Assembly (NCBI GenBank): GCA_964364975.1
Contig: CAYIOH010000001.1
Coordinates: forward strand, 1 to 36,637
Reading direction: 5' to 3'
Source: an uncultured Bifidobacteriaceae bacterium
GTDB taxonomy: Bacteria; Verrucomicrobiota; Verrucomicrobiia; Limisphaerales; JADLHS01
Length of the DNA: 36,637 nt
Position 1 is the first letter of the stretch. Each line of letters begins with the position of its first letter. The notes under the pieces were generated by a model, which was not told the DNA's origin, did no database searches, and saw nothing but the letters and a program-made list of their open reading frames with translations. A program made the translations under genes and the position numbers. Of this stretch, positions 1 through 36,629 are shown one piece after another.

Positions 1-159
1 CAAGTTGAAGCGGAATACATTCCGCGCTCCGTTACCGGGACGCTTCCCGATGCTCAAATCAGTCGTCCGAGGGGGTATTCCACACGGACAAAGGCTCCAA
101 GCGCCTGCCTGTGACGCCGAGGCAGACAGGCGCCCTTCCTGCGCTGAGAAATTTTCCGC

Positions 160-2073
160 TCACACCTGCCTGCGCCGCAGAGCCGGGCGTCGCGGCAGGC
201 AGGCCTGCGGAACCTCCTCCAGCGAAACCTGGAATCTTCGGGTCGTGATCCCGCCATGTCGGCAGCATTCCAGGATGTCCCGCAAGCGTTCGGAGTTAAT
301 GTCGGGCGTCGCCAGGATCAGTTCTTCCGCGCCCAGACTCCGCATCTTTTCACCGAGGACTTGGAACGAACTGAGGATGGGATAGCCGTGGAACATCTTT
401 TGTTGCTTGCCCGGGTCATCGTCAATAAAGCCAACCGGGGTCAACGAAAGTTTCTGATTCGTGAGGAGTTCGTGCATCAGGAGACTCCCGTTGCGGTCGG
501 CGCCGTAGATCAAGACCTTCCGCTTGTGTTCGGGATTGGAGCGCGCATAGTAGGCCAGCAGGCGGACGGAAAAACGAATCCCAAGCAACAGCGAACTCAT
601 CACGTAGAAATCCATGATCAAGACGGCCTGGGGGCAATGCTTGAGTGGCAGGCAACGCAGGACTCCGCCCACCACCAGGCAGCCAAGCAGCGTCGAACGC
701 ATTCCACGCAAGAGGTCCGGCAGACCCGCATGCTCCCATTTGATGCGATAGAAGCCGGTGAAATAGAAGACGAGCACTTTGGTGAGCAACACCACCGGGA
801 GCGTCTCGATAAAGCAGATTTTCACTGGACCTTCGAAACGTCCTTCGAAGTGGATCCAGTACGTCACGTAGTAGGCCAACGAGATGAGCGCCAAGTCAAT
901 CAGGATTTGGAACATCTGGTAGCCCAGCAGCGGGAGTTTCGAGAGCGGCAGCAGGGTTCCGTTGCGAAGCCACTGCAGCTCCTGGTAGCGCAGCTTCTGC
1001 ACCGCATAGACCGTGGCCACGCCCATCGCCAGCAGAATCAGGCCGACGTTGAGATTGCGGACTGAGGCGAGCAGGAACGCGATACCGCCCAGCGTCGTGC
1101 AGATGCCGTAGAGAACGATCACACAGTTCTTGTGCGTGATCCCCAACTGCATCAACCGATGGTGAATATGGTCGCGGTCCGCCTCGAACATGCTCTGTCC
1201 ACCCCGGAAGAACAGCCGATACGTGCTGCCCCGCGTCTGCTCGATGACGTGCATTGCCCGCAGAAAGCGGCGCGCCATCGCCAGCAGCGTGTCCATGATC
1301 GGCAGCCCGAACGCCAGAATCGGGATCAACACCGACACCGCTGCGCTGCTTTTGTGGGACGTCTTGATGCTCAACACCGCCAGCGTGAACCCGACGAACA
1401 GGCTCCCCGCATCGCCCATGAAGATGGAGGCCGGATGAAAATTGTACCGCAGAAATCCAGCGAGCGCGCCCGCCAGGACCGAGCAGAGCAGCGCCAGTTC
1501 GACTTGTTGATTGAGCAGCGCGATCGCCGCCAGGGTGAGCGAAGAGAGCACACCGATCCCCGCCGCCAGACCGTCGAGTCCATCAATCAGGTTGAACGCG
1601 TTGGTCACCCCAACGATCCACAGCATGGTGACGGGGATGCTCAACAGCCCAAGTTCAATGGACGTTCCCCAGGGCAGGGCCACGTGGTCAATCACGAACC
1701 CGAACCGGGTCGCCACGAGCGCCGCCATTAGCTGGATCAGGAACTTGAATCGCGCGCCCAGCGAGCAGATGTCATCGCACACACCGAGCACGACGATGAT
1801 TGCAGACACAGGCAGGAAGCCTTTCCACCATTGTTCGTTGATCAGCGGCGCGGGGTAGTGGCCGAGGCGAAAGACGTACAGGCCAAGAAGCACGGTCACG
1901 TGGAACGCAGCGAACACTGCCAGCCCACCCATCCGAGGGATCGGTCGCTGATGCACCTTGCGGGCATTGGGCACATCCACTGCGCCAAGAAAAATCGCCA
2001 GCTTCCGCACCAGTGGCGTCAATAGAAGGGAGAAAAGCAACCCTCCAGCGAAGACGAGCAAATACTTGAGCAT
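160..2073 (-). CDS. Polyprenyl-phosphate HexNAc-1-phosphate transferase (WecA/MraY family, GT4) fused to a C-terminal CapD/WbpM-N-terminal-like membrane + Rossmann-like module
   Basis: 637-aa ORF. The N-terminal multi-pass membrane domain carries MraY/WecA-type motifs (VCDDICSL, NAFNLIDGLDGLAAG, FMGDAGSLFVGF, HIHHRL). The C-terminal ~250 aa has extra TM helices plus KVLIYGADRNGSLL...PVGFIDDDPGKQ, as in the N-terminal half of CapD/WbpM/PglF, but no dehydratase domain follows. Confidence 0.8.
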   Translation of the reverse strand: MLKYLLVFAGGLLFSLLLTPLVRKLAIFLGAVDVPNARKVHQRPIPRMGGLAVFAAFHVTVLLGLYVFRLGHYPAPLINEQWWKGFLPVSAIIVVLGVCDDICSLGARFKFLIQLMAALVATRFGFVIDHVALPWGTSIELGLLSIPVTMLWIVGVTNAFNLIDGLDGLAAGIGVLSSLTLAAIALLNQQVELALLCSVLAGALAGFLRYNFHPASIFMGDAGSLFVGFTLAVLSIKTSHKSSAAVSVLIPILAFGLPIMDTLLAMARRFLRAMHVIEQTRGSTYRLFFRGGQSMFEADRDHIHHRLMQLGITHKNCVIVLYGICTTLGGIAFLLASVRNLNVGLILLAMGVATVYAVQKLRYQELQWLRNGTLLPLSKLPLLGYQMFQILIDLALISLAYYVTYWIHFEGRFEGPVKICFIETLPVVLLTKVLVFYFTGFYRIKWEHAGLPDLLRGMRSTLLGCLVVGGVLRCLPLKHCPQAVLIMDFYVMSSLLLGIRFSVRLLAYYARSNPEHKRKVLIYGADRNGSLLMHELLTNQKLSLTPVGFIDDDPGKQQKMFHGYPILSSFQVLGEKMRSLGAEELILATPDINSERLRDILECCRHGGITTRRFQVSLEEVPQACLPRRPALRRRQV

Positions 2074-2113
2074 TTAATTATGCCGGCGAAACGGCATGAA
2101 ACAGTGTCCCCTT

Positions 2114-2296
2114 TCAGCAGCGGCCTCGGCCTGTGGGTCGCTCCGCCTCGTCAATAAGCATCACGGGGGTCTCGTCGCGGATGGGAAAACGCAGGCCGCA
2201 TTGGCCGTTCTCGCAAGTCAGCCTGTCTTGTGTTTGTGCCAACCTCGATTTGCAGGCGGGACACACCAGGATTTCCATCAGTTGCTGTGTGATCAT
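2114..2296 (-). CDS. Trm112/YcaR (UPF0434) family small zinc-ribbon protein
   Basis: 60-aa ORF with LMEILVCPACKSRL...LTC...CGLRFPIRDETPVMLIDEAE, the typical Trm112-like pattern. Confidence 0.75.
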   Translation of the reverse strand: MITQQLMEILVCPACKSRLAQTQDRLTCENGQCGLRFPIRDETPVMLIDEAERPTGRGRC

Positions 2297-2316
2297 AAAT
2301 CGGCGGAAACTCCGGC

Positions 2317-3300
2317 CTACTCACATGCCGGTGACATCGAGCGATTGCCGCTATTCCCGATCTTGGCGCTCCGCTGTTCGTAATCGGCGATCGTTTTGCA
2401 CAACCCTTCTTCAAGCGTCGTCGTCGCCCGAAAACCGAATTCACCGGCCGCTCTCTCCACGTTCAGACAGCGGTGCGGCTGCCCATTTGGCTTGGAGGTG
2501 TCCCAGCGGATTTCGCCTTTGAAGTGCGTCAATTGTGCGATGATCCGCACCAGTTTCCTTACAGAAATCTCCTGTCCGGTGCCCAGATTGACCGGCTCCG
2601 GTTTGTTGTAATGTTCCGCCGCCCGCAGGATTCCTTCAGCAGCGTCCTCGACGTACATGAACTCCCGCGTGGCGGTACCATCCCCCCAGCATTCGACAAA
2701 CGCATCGCCGCGCTCACGGGCGTCGATACATTTTTTAATGATCGCTGGGATGACGTGCGAAGAATCAGGGTCGAAATTGTCGCCGGGACCGTACAGGTTG
2801 ACCGGCAGCAGATAAATCGCGTTCAGTCCATACTCTTGGCGATAGGCCATGCACTGCACGAGCAGGGCCTTTTTGGCGATGCCGTACGGCGCATTGGTTT
2901 CCTCGGGATACCCGTTCCATAGATCAGCTTCCTTGAACGGCACCGGCGTGAATTTCGGATAGCAGCAAATCGTCCCGATCACCACAAGCTTCGACAATTG
3001 AAACTGCCGTGCCTGCTCGATCAATTCAATGCCCATGATGGCATTATTGTAGAAGAATTTTCCAGGATGCGCCCGATTGGCCCCGATGCCGCCCGCGGTT
3101 GCGGCCAAATGCAACACCATCGTGGGGCGTGTGTCTTTAAACAACCGCGCAATCGCGTGGAGGTGGTGCAAATCGTATTCCGCGCGGCGCGGTAAAAAAA
3201 TATTCCGGCATCCGCGCGCTCGCAATCCCTCGACCACGAACGAACCAAGAAAACCTGCGCCCCCGGTGACGACTACTCGTTGATTTTGAAAAAAGCTCAT
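2317..3300 (-). CDS. fcl: GDP-L-fucose synthase (GDP-4-keto-6-deoxymannose 3,5-epimerase/4-reductase)
   Basis: 327 aa. SDR Rossmann motif [12 protein letters not shown], catalytic YGIAKK, and [26 protein letters not shown] typical of Fcl/WcaG. It lies immediately downstream of gmd. Confidence 0.85.
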
Positions 3301-3321
3301 AAAATTCCTCCTGTTTGATTG

Positions 3322-4338
3322 TTATTCTGCCATGACCTCGGCCACCTTGCCCGCCAGCTTGTCCTCCAGCATCTGTATGTCCGCCTCGACCATCAACCGC
3401 ACGAGTTCCTTGAATTCCGTCTTGGGTTCCCAGCCGAGAATTCGTTTGGCCTTGGATGCGTCGCCTACCAGGATGTCCACTTCAGCCGGGCGCAAATACT
3501 TTGCATCAAGCGTTACGTATTTCTCCCAATCCAACCCCACACACCCGAACGCCTCCTCGCAGAACTCGCGCACGGTGTGCGTTTCGCCGGTGGCGATGAC
3601 ATAATCATCGGGTGTGTCTTGTTGCAGCATCAACCACATTGCCTCGACGTATTCGGGGGCATAACCCCAATCGCGTTTGGCGTCAAGATTCCCCAAAAAC
3701 ACTCTTTTTTGAAGCCCCGCTTGGATGTGAGCGACAGCTCGCGTGATCTTCCGCGTGACAAATGTTTCGCCCCGGCGGGGCGACTCGTGATTGAATAAAA
3801 TTCCATTACAGGCAAACAGATTGTAACTCTCGCGATAATTGACCGTAGCCCAGTAAGCGAACACCTTGGAAACACCGTAGGGACTGCGGGGATGAAACCG
3901 CGTCGTCTCGCGCTGGGGAATCTCCGCAACCTTGCCGAACATCTCGCTTGATGACGCTTGATAAAATCGTGGAGCCACACCCGCCGCGCGGATCGCTTCG
4001 AGGAGGCGCAGGGTGCCGACCCCTGTGATATCCGCCGTGTACTCGGGAGTATCGAAGCTGACGCGAACATGACTCTGCGCGCCGAGATGATAAATCTCAT
4101 CCGGTTGCACATCATGAAACAACTTCACCAGGGCCATGGAATCGCTGAGATCGCCGTGGTGCAGCATCAAGCGAACTCCCCGGTTGTGCGGATCTTGATA
4201 AAGATGGTCCAGGCGGCCGGTGTTGAAAGTGCTGGCGCGCCGGATGATTCCATGCACTTCGTAGCCCTTGTCCAACAACAGTTCCGCCAGATATGAGCCG
4301 TCCTGTCCTGTGATTCCTGTGATTAACGCTTGTTTCAT
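3322..4338 (-). CDS. gmd: GDP-mannose 4,6-dehydratase
   Basis: 338 aa. N-terminus [47 protein letters not shown] and [17 protein letters not shown] are hallmark Gmd sequences. Confidence 0.95.
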
Positions 4339-4347
4339 GTTCCTCTC

Positions 4348-5667
4348 CTAGGTTCTTGCCGGCTGCCGCTCCACTTCTGCCGGAATTTGATTTCTCTCCT
4401 TCGTTGCGTCCGCCGCCTTACCGCCAAGTTCGGCGATTAACGACCGGAATTTGTCCACCGCCAGTCGCCGATCGAATAATCTCTCGGCCAAGCCGCGTCC
4501 CCGCTGCCCCATTTCCTGAAGCTCTTCTCGATGATTGAATCCCCACAGAATCGCCGCGCGGAGCTGTTCAACCGAATTGGGTTCTACACGAATGCCGCAG
4601 CGGCCTTGCCGAATCAGCTCCGCGATGTCGCTTTCTTCTTCCACGGCCGCGATGAACGGACGGCCCGCGGCGAGAATGCCATAGACCTTGCTCGGCACGA
4701 TCAATCCCGCCAGCCCGCGTTCGAGCGTCACCAGATGAACGTCCGCCGCGCTCAATGAATACGAGAGCGATTCCTTCGGTTGGTAGGGAAGCAAGAGCAC
4801 GTTCTTCAATCCCAATGCCCGCGCCCTGGTCAGCAAGCGTTCCTTGGCGGCGCCTTCGCCCACGAAAACGAATCTGACCGTTGGCAAATCCTGCATCGCC
4901 GCCGCGATTTCGATCACTCGGTGCAGACCTTGCGACAGGCCCAAATTGCCCGAGTACATCACCACGAAACACCCGCCGAGTTGATGCTGTTCACGAAACG
5001 GATTCTGCTTTGGTTGGGGTCGCAGTTTTCTGGTGTCCACCCAATTCGAGATGATCCGGATTCGGCTGGCCCGACAGCAGGCCTTGGCTTTGACGCGCTC
5101 GCGCATGTCGTGGCCCAGCACAACCACGGCATCCGCCCCGCGAAGAATCTGGCGCGTGCCGGCGTCGAGCAGTTTGATCAGCAGCGGATTGTGCAATTGC
5201 CCCAGGGCGACGCCTACCTCGGGGAACAGATCCTGCACGTAAAACACAAATTTCGCCCGATGGAGCTTCGCGAACAACAAGCCGATCAATCCGAGCACGG
5301 GCGGGTCAGTCTCCGCCACGACGACTTCGGGCCGACGCGCGAAGAAGCCAGCCAGAAAACTGAAACAGAAGTACGACAACAGGTTCAGCACCCGTGCGGC
5401 GAAGAGGCGTTTGTTCAGTCGCGGGTTGTACGCCCGGAGGATACGGACGCGGCCCCGCGTCTCAGCGAGGATGGGAGACACCGAGCCCCAGCACGCCATA
5501 TTGTACGGGCGGCCCGCAACCACCGTCACCTCGTGCGTCTCGCTCAAGTCCTCGCACAACTCGGACAAGAGTTGCCCGGTGGCCTCGACGTCGGGATGGA
5601 AGGAGCGATTGAAGAATAGAATGTGCATATGGGACGGGAGGGCCGGGGTGGGCCGCTCCATCGGCAA
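4348..5667 (-). CDS. Glycosyltransferase family 4 (WcaI-like)
   Basis: 439-aa ORF. HILFFNRSFHPDVEATGQLLSELCEDLS...VTVVAG N-terminus resembles WcaI-type GT4; C-terminal GT1-fold motif LLPYQPKE...ADVHLVTLE. The start may be the internal ATG at 5628 (MHILFF). Confidence 0.75.
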   Translation of the reverse strand: MPMERPTPALPSHMHILFFNRSFHPDVEATGQLLSELCEDLSETHEVTVVAGRPYNMACWGSVSPILAETRGRVRILRAYNPRLNKRLFAARVLNLLSYFCFSFLAGFFARRPEVVVAETDPPVLGLIGLLFAKLHRAKFVFYVQDLFPEVGVALGQLHNPLLIKLLDAGTRQILRGADAVVVLGHDMRERVKAKACCRASRIRIISNWVDTRKLRPQPKQNPFREQHQLGGCFVVMYSGNLGLSQGLHRVIEIAAAMQDLPTVRFVFVGEGAAKERLLTRARALGLKNVLLLPYQPKESLSYSLSAADVHLVTLERGLAGLIVPSKVYGILAAGRPFIAAVEEESDIAELIRQGRCGIRVEPNSVEQLRAAILWGFNHREELQEMGQRGRGLAERLFDRRLAVDKFRSLIAELGGKAADATKERNQIPAEVERQPART

Positions 5668-33477: not shown

Positions 33478-34743
33478 TCAGTTTTGTTGGATTGATGAGG
33501 CGGCTGCCGCTTTCGGCGGCGAAAGCGCTTCCAGTCTGGGAACAAGCCGTTCCACGATCTCATGCACGCGAGTTTGGAAGCTTTCGAACGAAAAATCATT
33601 AAGGCTGGCTGAAACAAATCCGCGAGGCCACTTCAGCGCCGCCAGGATTCCTTCCCGGATCTCTGCGGGGTTCCTCGGGTCAACGATGAATCCCAGCTTC
33701 CCACCGCCCACCACCTCGCAGCTCGCGTCGGCTTTGCTCGCAACGACCGGAATTCCACAAGCCATCGCTTCCAAGTAAACGATACCGAATCCTTCACCCC
33801 AGCCCGGCATCACGAAGGCATCCGCCATGCGGTAATGATCCACTTTTTCGTCCTCTGGGATTCGGCCGGCGAAAACGACCTGCGCGGGGTTGAGCGTGGA
33901 GCGTGGAGCGTGGAGGGTCGGGGAGTGGGGCTTCGATACCTCACCCAACCCTCTCCCCGATCGATGCGGAGAGGGCGATGAGTTAGCGCGCGCGCAGTCG
34001 GTCACGGAAAGGCCGAGTGATTGCGCCTTGTTCATCAAGCGCTCCCGGTCCGTTCCATCGCCGACGACGAGGTAGCAAAGACTTGGGATTTCTTTCGACA
34101 AATCAGGCAGAACTTCCATGACTCTGTCCACTCCCTTGTACCGTTCCTGCGCCGAAAGGCGTGCCACGGTCAGCAGGACTGTCCGGTCGCGCAGACAATA
34201 ACGGTCGAGCAGTTGCGAGTTTTTTGGGCCGGGGCGGAAAGCAGCCAACTCGATGCAGTTGGGCAAAATGAAAGTCCGAACGCCGTCCAATCGCGCCCAG
34301 CCCAGAAATCGCTGCTTCGTAAACTCGCTTACCGCAATCAGGGCGTTGATTCTCCTGACCAATCGATTGACCAGCCAACTGCGAGTCGGTTGCCACGCGT
34401 CAATGCCATGGATTACCAACGCGACCGGCGCACGGCAAAACAATCGCGCCGCCAATGCGACCGATAGCAGATTGATGTGGCCGCAAATCAGAAGGTCAGG
34501 GGTCGGAAGTCGGAGAACGGTGGTCAAAACCGTTTTGATATAGCGCAGTTTGCTGCCGACGCCGGAGGTGACGTAGTTAAGCTTCGTCGGCAGTGCGCCG
34601 GGCGGCTCGGGCATCAAGCGTGGAACAGCCACAACTTCTTCAACGTCCTGGGCCGCACAGAGCGCGGTCAGCAGATCGCGATTGAACTTCGCGATGCCTC
34701 CGAAACCGCCGAAGGCGTCCGTCACGAGAACCAGAATGCGCAT
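33478..34743 (-). CDS. Glycosyltransferase family 4 with ~40-codon repeat-derived insert
   Basis: 421 aa. MRILVLVTDAFGGFGGIAKFNRDL N-terminus; VMPGWGEGFGIVYLEAMACGIPVVAS C-domain. The segment VTDCARANSSPSPHRSGRGLGEVSKPHSPTLHAPRSTLNPA coincides with 33892-33982. The start ATG shares one base with the asnB stop (TGATG). Confidence 0.8.
   Translation of the reverse strand: MRILVLVTDAFGGFGGIAKFNRDLLTALCAAQDVEEVVAVPRLMPEPPGALPTKLNYVTSGVGSKLRYIKTVLTTVLRLPTPDLLICGHINLLSVALAARLFCRAPVALVIHGIDAWQPTRSWLVNRLVRRINALIAVSEFTKQRFLGWARLDGVRTFILPNCIELAAFRPGPKNSQLLDRYCLRDRTVLLTVARLSAQERYKGVDRVMEVLPDLSKEIPSLCYLVVGDGTDRERLMNKAQSLGLSVTDCARANSSPSPHRSGRGLGEVSKPHSPTLHAPRSTLNPAQVVFAGRIPEDEKVDHYRMADAFVMPGWGEGFGIVYLEAMACGIPVVASKADASCEVVGGGKLGFIVDPRNPAEIREGILAALKWPRGFVSASLNDFSFESFQTRVHEIVERLVPRLEALSPPKAAAASSIQQN
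33892..33982. repeat. Heptamer array (GAGCGTG)3... plus small hairpin, inside the GT4 CDS
   Basis: GAGCGTG x3 GAGGGTC GGGGAGT GGGGCTT CGATACC TCACCCA ACCCTCT CCCCGAT CGATGCG GAGAGGG CGATGAG. CCCTCTCC (33949-33956) pairs with GGAGAGGG (33968-33975). Confidence 0.8.
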
Positions 34744-36629
34744 CAGTTTCGAGTGAACCGATCGTAAACCTGCCTGGCCCAGCCACGAAGGCCGCGAGAA
34801 TTCGCGCGGGGTTGAGCGTTGAGGGAAAAGGTTTGAGAGTCGCGCAAAAGCCAGTCGCGGACCGGGACGGAAAAGCCGGTCTTGGGCCGGGCAAGCAGGG
34901 CAGCAGGGAGCGGAGAGCGGGGAGTAAGGGCCATGTCGCGCTTGGTCGGAGGCGTCTCGCTGGCGAGCAACGGAGCGACCGCGTGCAGGACCGCCACGTC
35001 CACCAGCGGCACGCGGATTTCCAGCGAGTGAGCCATGCCTGCCCAGTCCGAATCACGCAGGAGTTGGTTGCGCATGTACCAGCACATCTCGAGAGCACTG
35101 ACGCGCACGCGGCCAGAGTTCAGAGGACAGAAGTCAGAATTTGGAACTGATCGCCGATCTCTGATCGCCGATCTCTGAGAAAGCAGACCAGCGGTCAAAT
35201 TCAACAAGGCAAGGGTGTTGAGCTCTTCCCAGCCTTCGCGCACGAGGTCCGGCTCGAGCAATTCAGGCAGTTCCCAAGGCATGAACAGACCACGGCGGAG
35301 CAGGTAGGCATCGGCGTAGCTGGAGCCGTATTCGAGCAGCCCGGCGTATTTGGGCGAGGTGAAGCGATTGAGCACGGGGGTGGAAATCACACGAAGCGCG
35401 CGGCCAAGCGAACGGGCAAAAGGCAAAGGGCGAAGGGCCTTCACGAGGCGCGGAATTTCGCGAAAGCTGGGATAGCCGCCGAACAATTCGTCGCCGCCCA
35501 AACCGGACAGGGCGACCTTCAGCGAAGCGCGCGCGGCGGCGAAGCTGACGAAGTAGGTGTTGACGCCATCCGTGCTCGGCTGATCCATTGCGTCGAAAAG
35601 GCGATTAACGTGAGTTTGAAAATCTCGACGCGCGACCCAAATGGTCTGGTGTTGTGCGCCGTATTGGCGGGCGACGGCTTCGGCGAACGGGACTTCATCG
35701 TTGGCCGTCCCACGAAATTCCTCGAATCCCAGTGTGACCGTGCGCAAACGGCCGCCTTGCTCGGCGGCCAGCGCGGCAAGTGTCGTCGAGTCCAAGCCGG
35801 ATGACAGAAACACACCGACGGGGACATCGGCGATCAGGTGGTGCCGGATTGTGTCCTGGAGAGCGAAGCGCAACAAGTCGTGGAGTTGAGGGCTGGGGGC
35901 TGAGGGTTGAGAGTTCGAGCGTTCGGCATGCGAAAGGATTTCCGTGATTGAGCAGAATTTGCGCTCCCGTCGCCCGCCGCCCTGGCCAACCCAAAGCGTC
36001 GCACCCGGCGGCAAGGACCGGATGGTCTTGAACAGCGTGTAGGGTTCAGGCACGTGTCCCCACAGGAAGAAACCGACGTGCCCGGCCGGATCGGGTGTCT
36101 TCTCAATGTATCCGCCCGCGAGCAACGCCTTCACTTGCGAGGCCGCTCGAAATGTCCTGCCGTCATCCGCAAAATATAGCGGTTTGATGCCGAACGGGTC
36201 GCGCGCCAAAAGCAAGCCGCGTTGCTCGCCATCCCAGAGCGCAAAGGCATACATGCCGCGCAGATCGTTCATCATCGCCTCGCCTTTCTGCGCGTAGAGC
36301 CGGAGCAACACTTCCGTGTCGCTGTTGGATTTGAACACATGGCCTTGTTGTTCGAGCGCCGCGCGCAGTTCGCGGTAGTTGTAAATCTCGCCGTTGAAAA
36401 CGATCGCCAGTTGAAACTCCGGCAGCAGCATGGGCTGCGCACCGGCCGGGGACAGATCAATGATTGAAAGCCGGCGATGGCCAAGACCAACGCGGTGCAA
36501 AGGATCGAACCACTCTCCTGCCCCATCAGGACCACGCAGCGTCATGTGGTCGCGGATGGCGCGCAGTTCCCCGTCATTCACGCCGGGCGCGTCAGAGTTG
36601 TAGGCGAAGATGGCTGCTATGCCACACAT
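34743..36629 (-). CDS. asnB: Asparagine synthase (glutamine-hydrolysing) family amidotransferase
   Basis: 628 aa. MCGIA N-terminal nucleophile, HRRLSIIDLS, GEIYNYRELR, and the PP-loop VGVFLSSGLDST. Three clear repeat-derived segments and one tentative segment lie in the C-terminal half. Confidence 0.9.
   Translation of the reverse strand: MCGIAAIFAYNSDAPGVNDGELRAIRDHMTLRGPDGAGEWFDPLHRVGLGHRRLSIIDLSPAGAQPMLLPEFQLAIVFNGEIYNYRELRAALEQQGHVFKSNSDTEVLLRLYAQKGEAMMNDLRGMYAFALWDGEQRGLLLARDPFGIKPLYFADDGRTFRAASQVKALLAGGYIEKTPDPAGHVGFFLWGHVPEPYTLFKTIRSLPPGATLWVGQGGGRRERKFCSITEILSHAERSNSQPSAPSPQLHDLLRFALQDTIRHHLIADVPVGVFLSSGLDSTTLAALAAEQGGRLRTVTLGFEEFRGTANDEVPFAEAVARQYGAQHQTIWVARRDFQTHVNRLFDAMDQPSTDGVNTYFVSFAAARASLKVALSGLGGDELFGGYPSFREIPRLVKALRPLPFARSLGRALRVISTPVLNRFTSPKYAGLLEYGSSYADAYLLRRGLFMPWELPELLEPDLVREGWEELNTLALLNLTAGLLSQRSAIRDRRSVPNSDFCPLNSGRVRVSALEMCWYMRNQLLRDSDWAGMAHSLEIRVPLVDVAVLHAVAPLLASETPPTKRDMALTPRSPLPAALLARPKTGFSVPVRDWLLRDSQTFSLNAQPRANSRGLRGWARQVYDRFTRN
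34801..34842. repeat. Short heptamer array (about 6 units) near the 3' end of asnB
   Basis: TTCGCGC GGGGTTG AGCGTTG AGGGAAA AGGTTTG AGAGTCG. Encodes SQTFSLNAQPRANS. Same GnGTTGA unit family as 35883-35924. Confidence 0.55.
35114..35197. repeat. Mosaic heptamer array (about 12 units) inside asnB
   Basis: CAGAGTT CAGAGGA CAGAAGT CAGAATT TGGAACT GATCGCC GATCTCT GATCGCC GATCTCT GAGAAAG CAGACCA GCGGTCA. GATCTCTGATC (35156-35166) is the exact reverse complement of GATCAGAGATC at 8850-8860. Confidence 0.8.
35883..35924. repeat. Heptamer array (6 units = 42 bp = 14 codons) inside asnB
   Basis: GAGTTGA GGGCTGG GGGCTGA GGGTTGA GAGTTCG AGCGTTC. Occupies codons 236-249 exactly (ERSNSQPSAPSPQL), just upstream of the PP-loop. 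Confidence 0.75.

What the first reader, a model, noticed from the sequence alone, without database searches (positions are those of the whole stretch)
34743..36629. AsnB carries three clear, and possibly four, separate heptamer-derived segments
Three arrays lie in the synthetase half: 35883-35924 (codons 236-249 exactly, ERSNSQPSAPSPQL), 35114-35197 (about 28 codons, TAGLLSQRSAIRDRRSVPNSDFCPLNSG) and 34801-34842 (about 14 codons, SQTFSLNAQPRANS). A further GCAAAGGGCGAAGGGCC stretch at 35403-35444 (ALRPLPFARSLG) is tentative. None touches the MCGIA glutaminase nucleophile or the SGGLDS-type PP-loop. Multiple independent in-frame hits in one enzyme argue for a high insertion rate filtered by selection.
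Basis: partly seen in the sequence, partly recalled or inferred. Interest (0 to 1): 0.65.

Follow-up and report, generated by a model that had tools for sequence, protein, structure and literature searches.

The report
Seven-base repeats in AsnB enzyme loops
A sugar-pathway amidotransferase of a groundwater verrucomicrobium has one real 20-residue insertion made of 7-base tandem repeats and two floppy loops that look like worn remnants of such repeats. This is a local case of a lineage-wide repeat phenomenon, and the enzyme itself is not special.

Summary
The gene (34743-36629, minus strand) is an intact AsnB-family glutamine amidotransferase.

- **Segment 2 is the only real length-adding insertion.** It is 20 aa / 60 nt at residues 482-504. 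It is absent from 114 of 119 orthologues and falls in insert states of an orthologue HMM. It sits in a 77-nt, 11-unit heptamer mosaic with a perfect (GAGATCG GCGATCA)x2.3 module inside a degenerate NNTCTGN array.
- **Segment 1 is not extra length.** It is the interdomain linker, 25 aa against an orthologue range of 14-56. Its DNA is a degenerate (TCAAC[C/T]C)n array of a unit family that recurs in the genome.
- **Segment 3 is weaker.** It has 2 insert residues and a lag-7 p of about 0.01.
- **Segment 4 is not supported.** It has the modal length, a helix-turn-helix fold and no family-wide periodicity.

Across orthologues the same three loops carry other heptamer arrays or a palindromic element. 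One orthologue has that element at all three sites. The genome holds 203 strong period-7 arrays against 2 expected.

The best reading is selfish or neutral STRR-like repeat DNA tolerated in disordered loops and filtered for reading frame. How the arrays arise is unresolved.

The parts
34743..36629 (-). asnB-family glutamine amidotransferase CDS, 628 aa. The stop overlaps the start of the downstream GT4 gene (TGATG).
   Evidence: ORF. Pfam GATase_7 51-171 and Asn_synthase 253-598. TIGR01536 369 bits against a cutoff of 267. Fold matches TsnB9 7ylz and E. coli AsnB 1ct9.
35113..35189 (-). Segment 2: a 77-nt tract of 11 units in one heptamer register. The units are GGTCTGC TTTCTCA | GAGATCG GCGATCA GAGATCG GCGATCA GTTCCAA | ATTCTGA CTTCTGT CCTCTGA ACTCTGG. 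The last unit is native sequence (N-S-G).
   Evidence: Sequence. Lag-7 matches 44/77, genome fraction 6e-4.
35118..35186 (-). The true insertion: 60 nt / 20 aa. The HMM places it at residues 485-504 (35118-35177) and MAFFT at residues 482-501 (35127-35186).
   Evidence: Occupancy is 1-3% in 119 orthologues, and 114 of 119 have 18 aa between the anchors against 38 here. Insert states in the orthologue HMM. Coil with pLDDT 56-71.
35147..35178 (-). Perfect 14-mer module (plus strand CTGATCGCCGATCT) x2.3, the youngest-looking part of the mosaic.
   Evidence: TRF score 64, 100% matches. The half-unit CCGATCT equals AGATCGG, which forms an array in genome G028.
35883..35924 (-). Segment 1: interdomain linker E236-L249, a degenerate array CGAACTC TCAACCC TCAGCCC CCAGCCC TCAACTC of the TCAAC[C/T]C (= AACYCTC) family. 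It is not extra length relative to orthologues.
   Evidence: TRF 35887-35911. Lag-7 matches 21/35. Exact two-unit match to a family seen 24 times against 0 in the control. Linker is 25 aa against 14-56 in orthologues. Coil 239-247, pLDDT about 70.
34801..34842 (-). Segment 3: C-terminal loop S597-S610, weakly heptamer-phased (GACTCTC AAACCTT TTCCCTC AACGCTC AACCCCG). It is probably an eroded array, with only N604-A605 in insert states.
   Evidence: Lag-7 matches 16/35, p 1.2e-2. HMM. pLDDT below 50 at 602-610. 16-nt identity to the GT4 insert tail. Amino-acid lag-7 periodicity at this site across orthologues.
35403..35444 (-). Segment 4 (tentative in the finding): not an insertion, and most likely a chance 7-nt periodicity in a structured helix-turn-helix.
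   Evidence: Length 32 aa equals the mode in 98 of 119 orthologues. No insert states. H388-399 and H405-423 with pLDDT 80-85. No lag-7 amino-acid signal in orthologues.
33880..33975 (-). Context in the neighbouring GT4 gene: palindromic element CCCTCTCCGCATCGATCGGGGAGAGGG-TTGGGTGAGGTATCGAA followed by a heptamer tail (CACGCTC)x3. It shares the 16-mer ACGCTCAACCCCGCGC with asnB segment 3, read in another frame.
   Evidence: Sequence. blastn. Element family has about 32 copies in the genome against 0 in the control.

Best explanation
The gene is a working AsnB-type amidotransferase of a glycan-synthesis cluster. Three of its surface loops are landing or turnover sites for the short repeat DNA that pervades this verrucomicrobial order.

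1. In this genome one loop (residues 482-504) has gained a 60-nt in-frame mosaic of heptamer tandem repeats.
2. The interdomain linker and a C-terminal loop are built from older, eroded heptamer arrays.
3. The repeats are STRR-like heptanucleotide arrays, in relatives often joined to a REP-like palindromic element.
4. They have no role in catalysis.
5. They persist because they lie in disordered, non-catalytic loops, are a multiple of 3 in net length, and lie in the one orientation that has no stop codon in any frame.

Shown: the insert, its repeat anatomy, the loop locations, the genome-wide and order-wide excess of such arrays, and recurrent independent events at the same three sites.

Inferred: neutrality, and the way the arrays arise. 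They may form by duplication or slippage in 7-nt register from native proto-repeats, by copying from dispersed arrays, or both.
For: - **Insert.** Present here and absent in 114 of 119 orthologues; in insert states of the HMM.
- **Repeat anatomy.**
- **Genome-wide excess.** Period-7 arrays with score >=40 number 203 against 2 in a Markov control, and with score >=50 number 90 against 0.
- **Same families elsewhere.** AACYCTC dimers occur 24 times against 0. (AACYCTC)3 is found in 27 of 41 relatives.
- **Orthologue linkers are arrays of other units.** G014 has GCTCCCT x5, G006 has CAGCTTT, and G028 has GAAGATC plus a palindrome plus AACTCTC.
- **Amino-acid periodicity.** Lag-7 identity is 0.148 in the linker and 0.152 at site 3, against about 0.07-0.08 at other lags, across 119 orthologues.
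- **Permissive sites.** Orthologue P0102 carries the palindromic element at all three sites.
- **Structure.** The AlphaFold model has mean pLDDT 89.8, and its lowest-confidence stretches are 241-250, 481-500 and 601-610.
- **DNA-level origin.** A 16-mer is shared with the neighbouring GT4 insert but read in another frame.
- **No RNA structure signal.** Folding z-scores range from -1.2 to +1.3.
Against: - Segments 1 and 3 are individually weak (p about 2e-3 and 1e-2 per window) and add little or no length, so their heptamer origin rests on family context.
- Low pLDDT partly reflects poor alignment conservation, so loop disorder is not independent evidence.
- No closer relative than about 73% identity exists in the databases searched. 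The insertion therefore cannot be dated and no intermediates can be seen.
- Neutrality is untested.
- Array copy number peaks at about 4 units, and the unit repertoire is shared across families. Plain slippage does not explain either.
Confidence: 0.7

Rival explanations
1. Only segment 2 is repeat-derived. Segments 1, 3 and 4 are ordinary low-complexity, fast-evolving loop sequence whose 7-nt periodicity is chance picked out by eye.
For: Per-window empirical p values of 1.7e-3, 1.2e-2 and 2.9e-3 are unremarkable over about 1,900 windows. TRF arrays of score 30-39 are common in the Markov control, 148 per genome. There are no insert states at seg1 or seg4. At the window's own array density, 3 arrays in asnB is not an excess.
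Against: Seg1 holds an exact dimer of a family seen 24 times against 0 in the control. Orthologue linkers are clean arrays of other units. A lag-7 amino-acid signal is specific to the linker and site 3 across 119 orthologues. Seg3 shares a 16-mer with a repeat tail nearby. For seg4 this rival is my own reading.
Confidence: 0.15
2. The arrays are a contingency (phase-variation) device. Gain or loss of 7-nt units switches this glycan-modifying enzyme on and off.
For: The unit length is not a multiple of 3. The gene lies in a surface-glycan cluster that is about 4-fold enriched in arrays.
Against: The longest perfect tract is 2.3 copies of a 14-mer and everything else is degenerate. A second assembly contig is 100% identical over 3,813 nt. 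The orthologues read in full are open across these sites.
Confidence: 0.06
3. The repeat-encoded peptides are selected, functional flexible linkers or interaction loops. An example would be tuning domain motion between the glutaminase and synthetase halves.
For: The linker is always present at 14-56 aa and hydrophilic. The loops are retained in frame.
Against: There is no sequence conservation at these sites (identity near 0). Unrelated units and a palindromic element substitute for each other. The same DNA is read in different frames in two genes.
Confidence: 0.07
4. The 60-nt tract is an assembly or binning artefact.
For: The genome is a fragmented metagenome-assembled genome of 925 contigs.
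Against: The tract is in frame, and a separately recorded contig is identical. Similar inserts occur at the same site in other assemblies.
Confidence: 0.02

Closest known systems
Heptanucleotide tandem repeats of bacteria: cyanobacterial STRR (Calothrix/Nostoc) and the Xanthomonas GGGAATC and Nostoc GGGGAYT arrays (PMC4692102, which also cites Mrazek 2007 for heptamer over-representation)
   Same: 7-nt units. Several unit families per genome. Hundreds of dispersed short arrays. A preferred size of about four units (against 'majority four units' in PMC4692102). Inverted pairs that can form hairpins.
   Different: A different phylum (Verrucomicrobiota) and other unit sequences that are mostly not G-rich. 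Here the arrays are translated in frame inside enzymes and form mosaics of several units. [quoted passage not shown]
Rickettsia palindromic elements (RPE) inserted in frame in protein-coding genes (PMC10969869)
   Same: Selfish repeat DNA retained inside ORFs as in-frame peptide segments at structurally permissive positions of unrelated enzymes. The palindromic CCCTCTCC...GGAGAGGG element in orthologue P0102 and in the neighbouring GT4 behaves this way.
   Different: RPEs are about 150 bp and palindromic. The asnB segments in this window have no palindromic core, are tandem 7-mers, and are only 40-77 nt long.
SSR-based phase-variable (contingency) loci, for example Haemophilus tetranucleotide or heptanucleotide tracts (PMC2651432, PMC8262952: titles and abstracts only)
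   Same: The unit is not a multiple of 3, the arrays are intragenic, and the context is surface glycans.
   Different: There is no long perfect tract and no observed length variation, and the arrays are fixed in frame.

Membership tests
Asparagine synthase B / class II (Ntn) glutamine amidotransferase | N-terminal Cys nucleophile directly after Met, and a GATase class II domain | tested here: met
   MCGIA at residues 1-5. PF13537 3e-44 and PF13522 5.5e-42.
Asparagine synthase B / class II (Ntn) glutamine amidotransferase | Synthetase domain with a PP-loop (SGGxDS type) | tested here: met
   PF00733 2.2e-54. SSGLDS at 276-281, with S276, G278, D280 and S281 invariant in 62 sequences. TIGR01536 369 bits against a cutoff of 267.
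Asparagine synthase B / class II (Ntn) glutamine amidotransferase | Two-domain AsnB fold | tested here: met
   Foldseek: 7ylz E 4.6e-30, TM 0.70/0.76; 1ct9 TM 0.63/0.79.
Asparagine synthase B / class II (Ntn) glutamine amidotransferase | Makes asparagine, as opposed to amidating a sugar or other carboxylate | not testable with these tools
   The glycan-cluster context and the fusions of orthologues to GT4 or GT9 suggest a glycan amidotransferase. No assay was possible.
Heptanucleotide tandem-repeat (STRR-like) arrays | Head-to-tail 7-nt units, three or more copies | tested here: met
   Seg2 has 11 phased units including a perfect 14-mer x2.3, and seg1 has 3.6 copies. Seg3 is not called by TRF and seg4 is marginal.
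Heptanucleotide tandem-repeat (STRR-like) arrays | Genome-wide excess of period-7 arrays with several recurrent unit families | tested here: met
   203 against 2 at score >=40. 73 canonical units. Array pairs sharing a unit: 575 against 30 expected.
Heptanucleotide tandem-repeat (STRR-like) arrays | Copy-number change by slippage between strains | not testable with these tools
The only other copy is 100% identical. No relative closer than about 73% aa identity.
Heptanucleotide tandem-repeat (STRR-like) arrays | Same unit sequences as the cyanobacterial STRR1-3 | not tested
   The 40 commonest units listed are different sequences. No formal comparison was made.
RPE-like in-frame palindromic elements | Palindromic core with dispersed homologous copies | tested here: not met
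   None of the four asnB segments has the CCCTCTCC..GGAGAGGG core, and no donor copy was found by blastn. The feature is met for the neighbouring GT4 and for orthologues P0102 and P0047.
SSR contingency locus | Long perfect tract and observed length heterogeneity | tested here: not met
   The longest perfect repeat is 32 nt, 2.3 copies of a 14-mer. The sequence is identical in a second contig. Population data were not available.

The most novel reading that the evidence does not exclude
The arrays may not be simple slippage microsatellites. They may instead be products of an active, sequence-biased process in the order Pedosphaerales that lays down modules of about four units (about 28 nt) from a limited, order-wide repertoire of heptamers, often next to a palindromic element. 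That process would keep rewriting the same permissive loops of conserved enzymes, acting as a lineage-specific generator of protein loop diversity.
Probability: 0.2. Interest if true: 0.7.

Novelty: new variant of a known kind. Interest (0 to 1): 0.45.

Why it matters
If the family-level picture holds, one conserved enzyme gives a clean natural experiment on where a protein fold tolerates foreign sequence. Three loops have absorbed heptamer arrays and palindromic elements many times across an order, and the catalytic core never has.

The result also extends heptanucleotide repeat biology from cyanobacteria and xanthomonads, where it is mainly intergenic, to Verrucomicrobiota, where the arrays are translated.

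The peaked module size of about four units and the shared unit repertoire are not explained by plain polymerase slippage. They could point to an unknown generating or dispersal mechanism.

For annotation, it warns that low-complexity inserts in these genomes are DNA-level repeats and not functional motifs.

Tried and rejected
- **Second copy of the locus.** Contig L021 is 100% identical over 3,813 nt, so it gives no information on variation.
- **Donor copy of the 60-nt insert.** blastn-short against the genome found only unit-level matches of 13-21 nt.
- **RNA structure of the four segments.** No signal; z-scores from -1.2 to +1.3.
- **Coding versus intergenic census.** Using stop-to-stop ORFs of at least 200 aa, 62% of arrays and 79% of random sites fall inside. 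This is too crude at 59% GC to say more than a mild depletion.
- **Alignment to distant paralogues to define the linker.** Several frames were picked wrongly and the C-terminal half did not align. Only a short gap of about 8-9 residues at 237-243 in some paralogues could be read.
- **Pfam per-position insert states.** The tools do not show them, so I used an HMM built from 119 orthologues instead.
- **Literature.** No paper on heptamer repeats in Verrucomicrobia was found.
- **Phase-variation and assembly-artefact readings.** Considered and given low weight; see the rival explanations.
Full report
**The gene.** Window 34743-36629 (minus strand) encodes a 628-aa protein beginning MCGIA.
- It has class II glutamine amidotransferase domains (PF13537, PF13522) and the Asn_synthase domain PF00733.
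- It scores 369 bits on TIGR01536, cutoff 267.
- An AlphaFold model built on 62 sequences has mean pLDDT 89.8. It matches TsnB9 (7ylz, TM 0.70/0.76) and E. coli AsnB (1ct9).
- The PP-loop reads SSGLDS at residues 276-281.
- Orthologues are labelled Verrucomicrobia or Pedosphaera. Many are fused to a GT4 or GT9 glycosyltransferase. With the cluster context, this suggests a glycan amidotransferase and not a housekeeping asparagine synthetase. That is inference.
- An identical contig comes from a sample whose record name begins 'Hain_PNK108', which I read as Hainich groundwater.

**Checking the observation at DNA level.** TRF calls three arrays in the gene:
- 35147-35178: 14-mer x2.3, perfect, score 64.
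- 35887-35911: 7-mer x3.6, 83% matches, score 36.
- 35414-35438: 7-mer x3.6, 83% matches, score 36.

It does not call 34801-34842. Counting lag-7 self-matches against all windows of the genome gives fractions of 1.7e-3 (seg1), 6e-4 (seg2), 1.2e-2 (seg3) and 2.9e-3 (seg4). With about 1,900 overlapping windows in the gene, only seg2 is convincing alone.

Read in register, seg2 is 11 phased units, 77 nt, at 35113-35189:
- GGTCTGC TTTCTCA
- GAGATCG GCGATCA GAGATCG GCGATCA GTTCCAA
- ATTCTGA CTTCTGT CCTCTGA ACTCTGG

A perfect GATC-containing module is nested in a degenerate NNTCTGN array, and the last unit of that array is native coding sequence.

Seg1 reads CGAACTC TCAACCC TCAGCCC CCAGCCC TCAACTC. 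It contains an exact dimer of the AACYCTC family, which occurs 24 times in the genome and never in a 5th-order Markov control.

**Are they insertions?** I aligned 119 orthologues of 59-73% identity.

| Site | This gene | Orthologues |
|---|---|---|
| Seg2, residues between anchors N470 and V509 | 38 aa | 18 aa in 114 of 119 |
| Seg1, linker I231..L257 | 25 aa | 14-56 aa, median about 23 |
| Seg3 | 18 aa | mode 17 aa |
| Seg4 | 32 aa | mode 32 aa in 98 of 119 |

Only residues 482-501 have near-zero occupancy. An HMM built from the orthologues puts the query in insert states only at 485-504 (QRSAIRDRRSVPNSDFCPLN) and 604-605. The real insert is 60 nt, not 84, and is not a multiple of 7.

**Structure.**
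- Seg1 is the coil 239-247 between helices 228-238 and 248-264, with pLDDT about 70.
- Seg2 is the coil between H472-479 and H506-533, with pLDDT 56-71.
- Seg3 includes 602-610, the only stretch with pLDDT below 50.
- Seg4 is a helix-turn-helix (H388-399, H405-423) with pLDDT 80-85.

The three real sites are the least confident parts of the model. The caveat is that low confidence partly follows from the poor alignment at these sites.

**Family picture.** The same three loops are hot spots across the order.
- *Linker DNA in orthologues.* G014 has (GCTCCCT)x5. G006 has CAGCTTT units. G028 has (GAAGATC)n, then a palindrome, then (AACTCTC)n. G003 has two palindromes and then AACYCTC units.
- *Site 3.* G028 carries (GCAGAAA)x4 followed by (TCGCAAA)x5.
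- *Site 2.* Three other orthologues carry independent inserts.
- *P0102.* This orthologue has the element CCCTCTCCGCCTCGAACGGGGAGAGGG..GGGTGAGGTGTCGAA (peptide PLRLERGEGQGEV) at all three sites.
- *Peptide periodicity.* A heptamer read in frame gives a 7-aa period. Across the 119 orthologues, amino-acid identity at lag 7 is 0.148 in the linker and 0.152 at site 3, against about 0.05-0.09 at lags 5, 6, 8 and 9. Seg4 shows no such signal.

This supports a heptamer origin for seg1 and seg3 and argues against it for seg4.

**Genome and lineage context.**
- The genome (4.85 Mb, 59% GC) has 203 period-7 arrays with TRF score >=40 against 2 in the control, and 90 against 0 at score >=50. Periods 14 and 21 are also raised.
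- Units are non-random. There are 73 canonical units, and 575 array pairs share a unit against 30 expected.
- Many arrays are inverted pairs forming hairpins with heptamer stems, for example (GCGTGTT)n..(AACACGC)n.
- Copy number peaks near four units, with few above five. The same preference is reported for Xanthomonas arrays (PMC4692102).
- (AACYCTC)3 occurs in 27 of 41 related genomes.
- Six of eight units in a 4.9-kb locus of a genome from another family have exact matches among this genome's units. One of them is AGATCGG, which equals half of the seg2 14-mer.
- The window itself has 18 arrays against 4.4 expected at the genome rate. AsnB is therefore not exceptional within it: 3 arrays against about 0.9 expected at the local rate.
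- Seg3 shares the 16-mer ACGCTCAACCCCGCGC with the heptamer tail of the palindromic insert in the adjacent GT4 gene. AsnB reads it as NAQPRA and GT4 as TLNPA, which is evidence of a DNA-level origin and not a protein-level one.

**Mechanism.**

*Shown:* one in-frame repeat insert, two repeat-derived hypervariable loops, recurrent independent events at the same sites, and their restriction to non-catalytic coils.

*Inferred:* the segments are passenger DNA filtered by selection for net length divisible by 3, for the stop-free orientation, and for loop position. The reverse strand of both the AACYCTC units and the GATC units contains TGA. An array read through all three frames can therefore lie in a gene in only one orientation.

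How the arrays arise is open.
- The native-like terminal unit of seg2, and a 21-nt duplication at the same site in P0047, fit local duplication in 7-nt register.
- The shared unit repertoire and the modules of about four units fit copying from dispersed arrays or a biased process.
- PMC4692102 relays the hypothesis that heptamer slippage relates to the DNA segment held by the polymerase.

No RNA structure signal was found. Phase variation is unlikely, because there is no long perfect tract and a second contig is identical.

**Comparison with known systems.** The closest are bacterial heptanucleotide repeats (cyanobacterial STRR and the Xanthomonas and Nostoc arrays, PMC4692102) and in-frame Rickettsia palindromic elements (PMC10969869). 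The differences are the phylum, the unit sequences, translation inside enzymes, and the mosaic build. I found no paper on this in Verrucomicrobia. Earlier notes of this scan on other arrays in the same window reached the same general reading.

**Verdict.** This is a new variant of a known kind, of moderate interest.

Noticed in passing
L002 (G006) 1501-4806; L003 (G028) 97-3408; proteins P0001-P0120: Many orthologues are single ORFs fusing AsnB to a GT4 and/or a GT9 heptosyltransferase-like domain. In the window the genes are separate, with a TGATG stop/start overlap at 34741-34745.
   Followed up: partly
L005 (G009) 1048-2649: The G009 orthologue ends after about residue 374 (…LKVASRFAAN*), and the GT4 gene starts in another frame. 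The C-terminal 250 aa appear to be lost.
   Followed up: no
genome contigs, e.g. C261:1850-1925, C283:2190-2270, C18:3973-4045: Dispersed hairpin elements whose stems are heptamer arrays, such as (GCGTGTT)n-GTCAAG-loop-CTTGAC-(AACACGC)n and (TCGAGGG)n-loop-(CCCTCGA)n. Loops vary while stems are conserved. 60 of 295 arrays are in such inverted pairs.
   Followed up: partly
window 33932-33975 and about 32 genome sites (e.g. C3:20130, C9:7924, C28:16382): A REP-like palindromic element CCCTCTCC-N5-14-GGAGAGGG followed by YCRGGGTGAGGTGTCGA. When translated it gives the 'PLRLERGEGQGEV' type peptide. In several cases it is followed by a heptamer-phased tail.
   Followed up: partly
whole genome G000: Copy number of period-7 arrays is peaked at about 4 units with a sharp fall above 5. 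This is unlike a slippage-type geometric tail and parallels the 'four units' preference reported for Xanthomonas.
   Followed up: partly
window 1-36637 (contig C1): The glycan cluster is about 4-fold enriched in period-7/14/21 arrays, 18 against 4.4 expected (Poisson P about 1e-6). A few other contigs (C97, C89, C58, C22) are similar.
   Followed up: no
window 34804-34819 and 33882-33897: An identical 16-mer ACGCTCAACCCCGCGC occurs in asnB segment 3 and in the GT4 insert tail. It is read in different frames (NAQPRA against TLNPA).
   Followed up: yes
L023 (P0047), site 2 of the orthologue: A 21-nt tandem duplication (TSDRRPI / SSDRLR) lies next to a palindromic-element insert at the same loop. 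This is an example of a three-heptamer, frame-keeping step.
   Followed up: no
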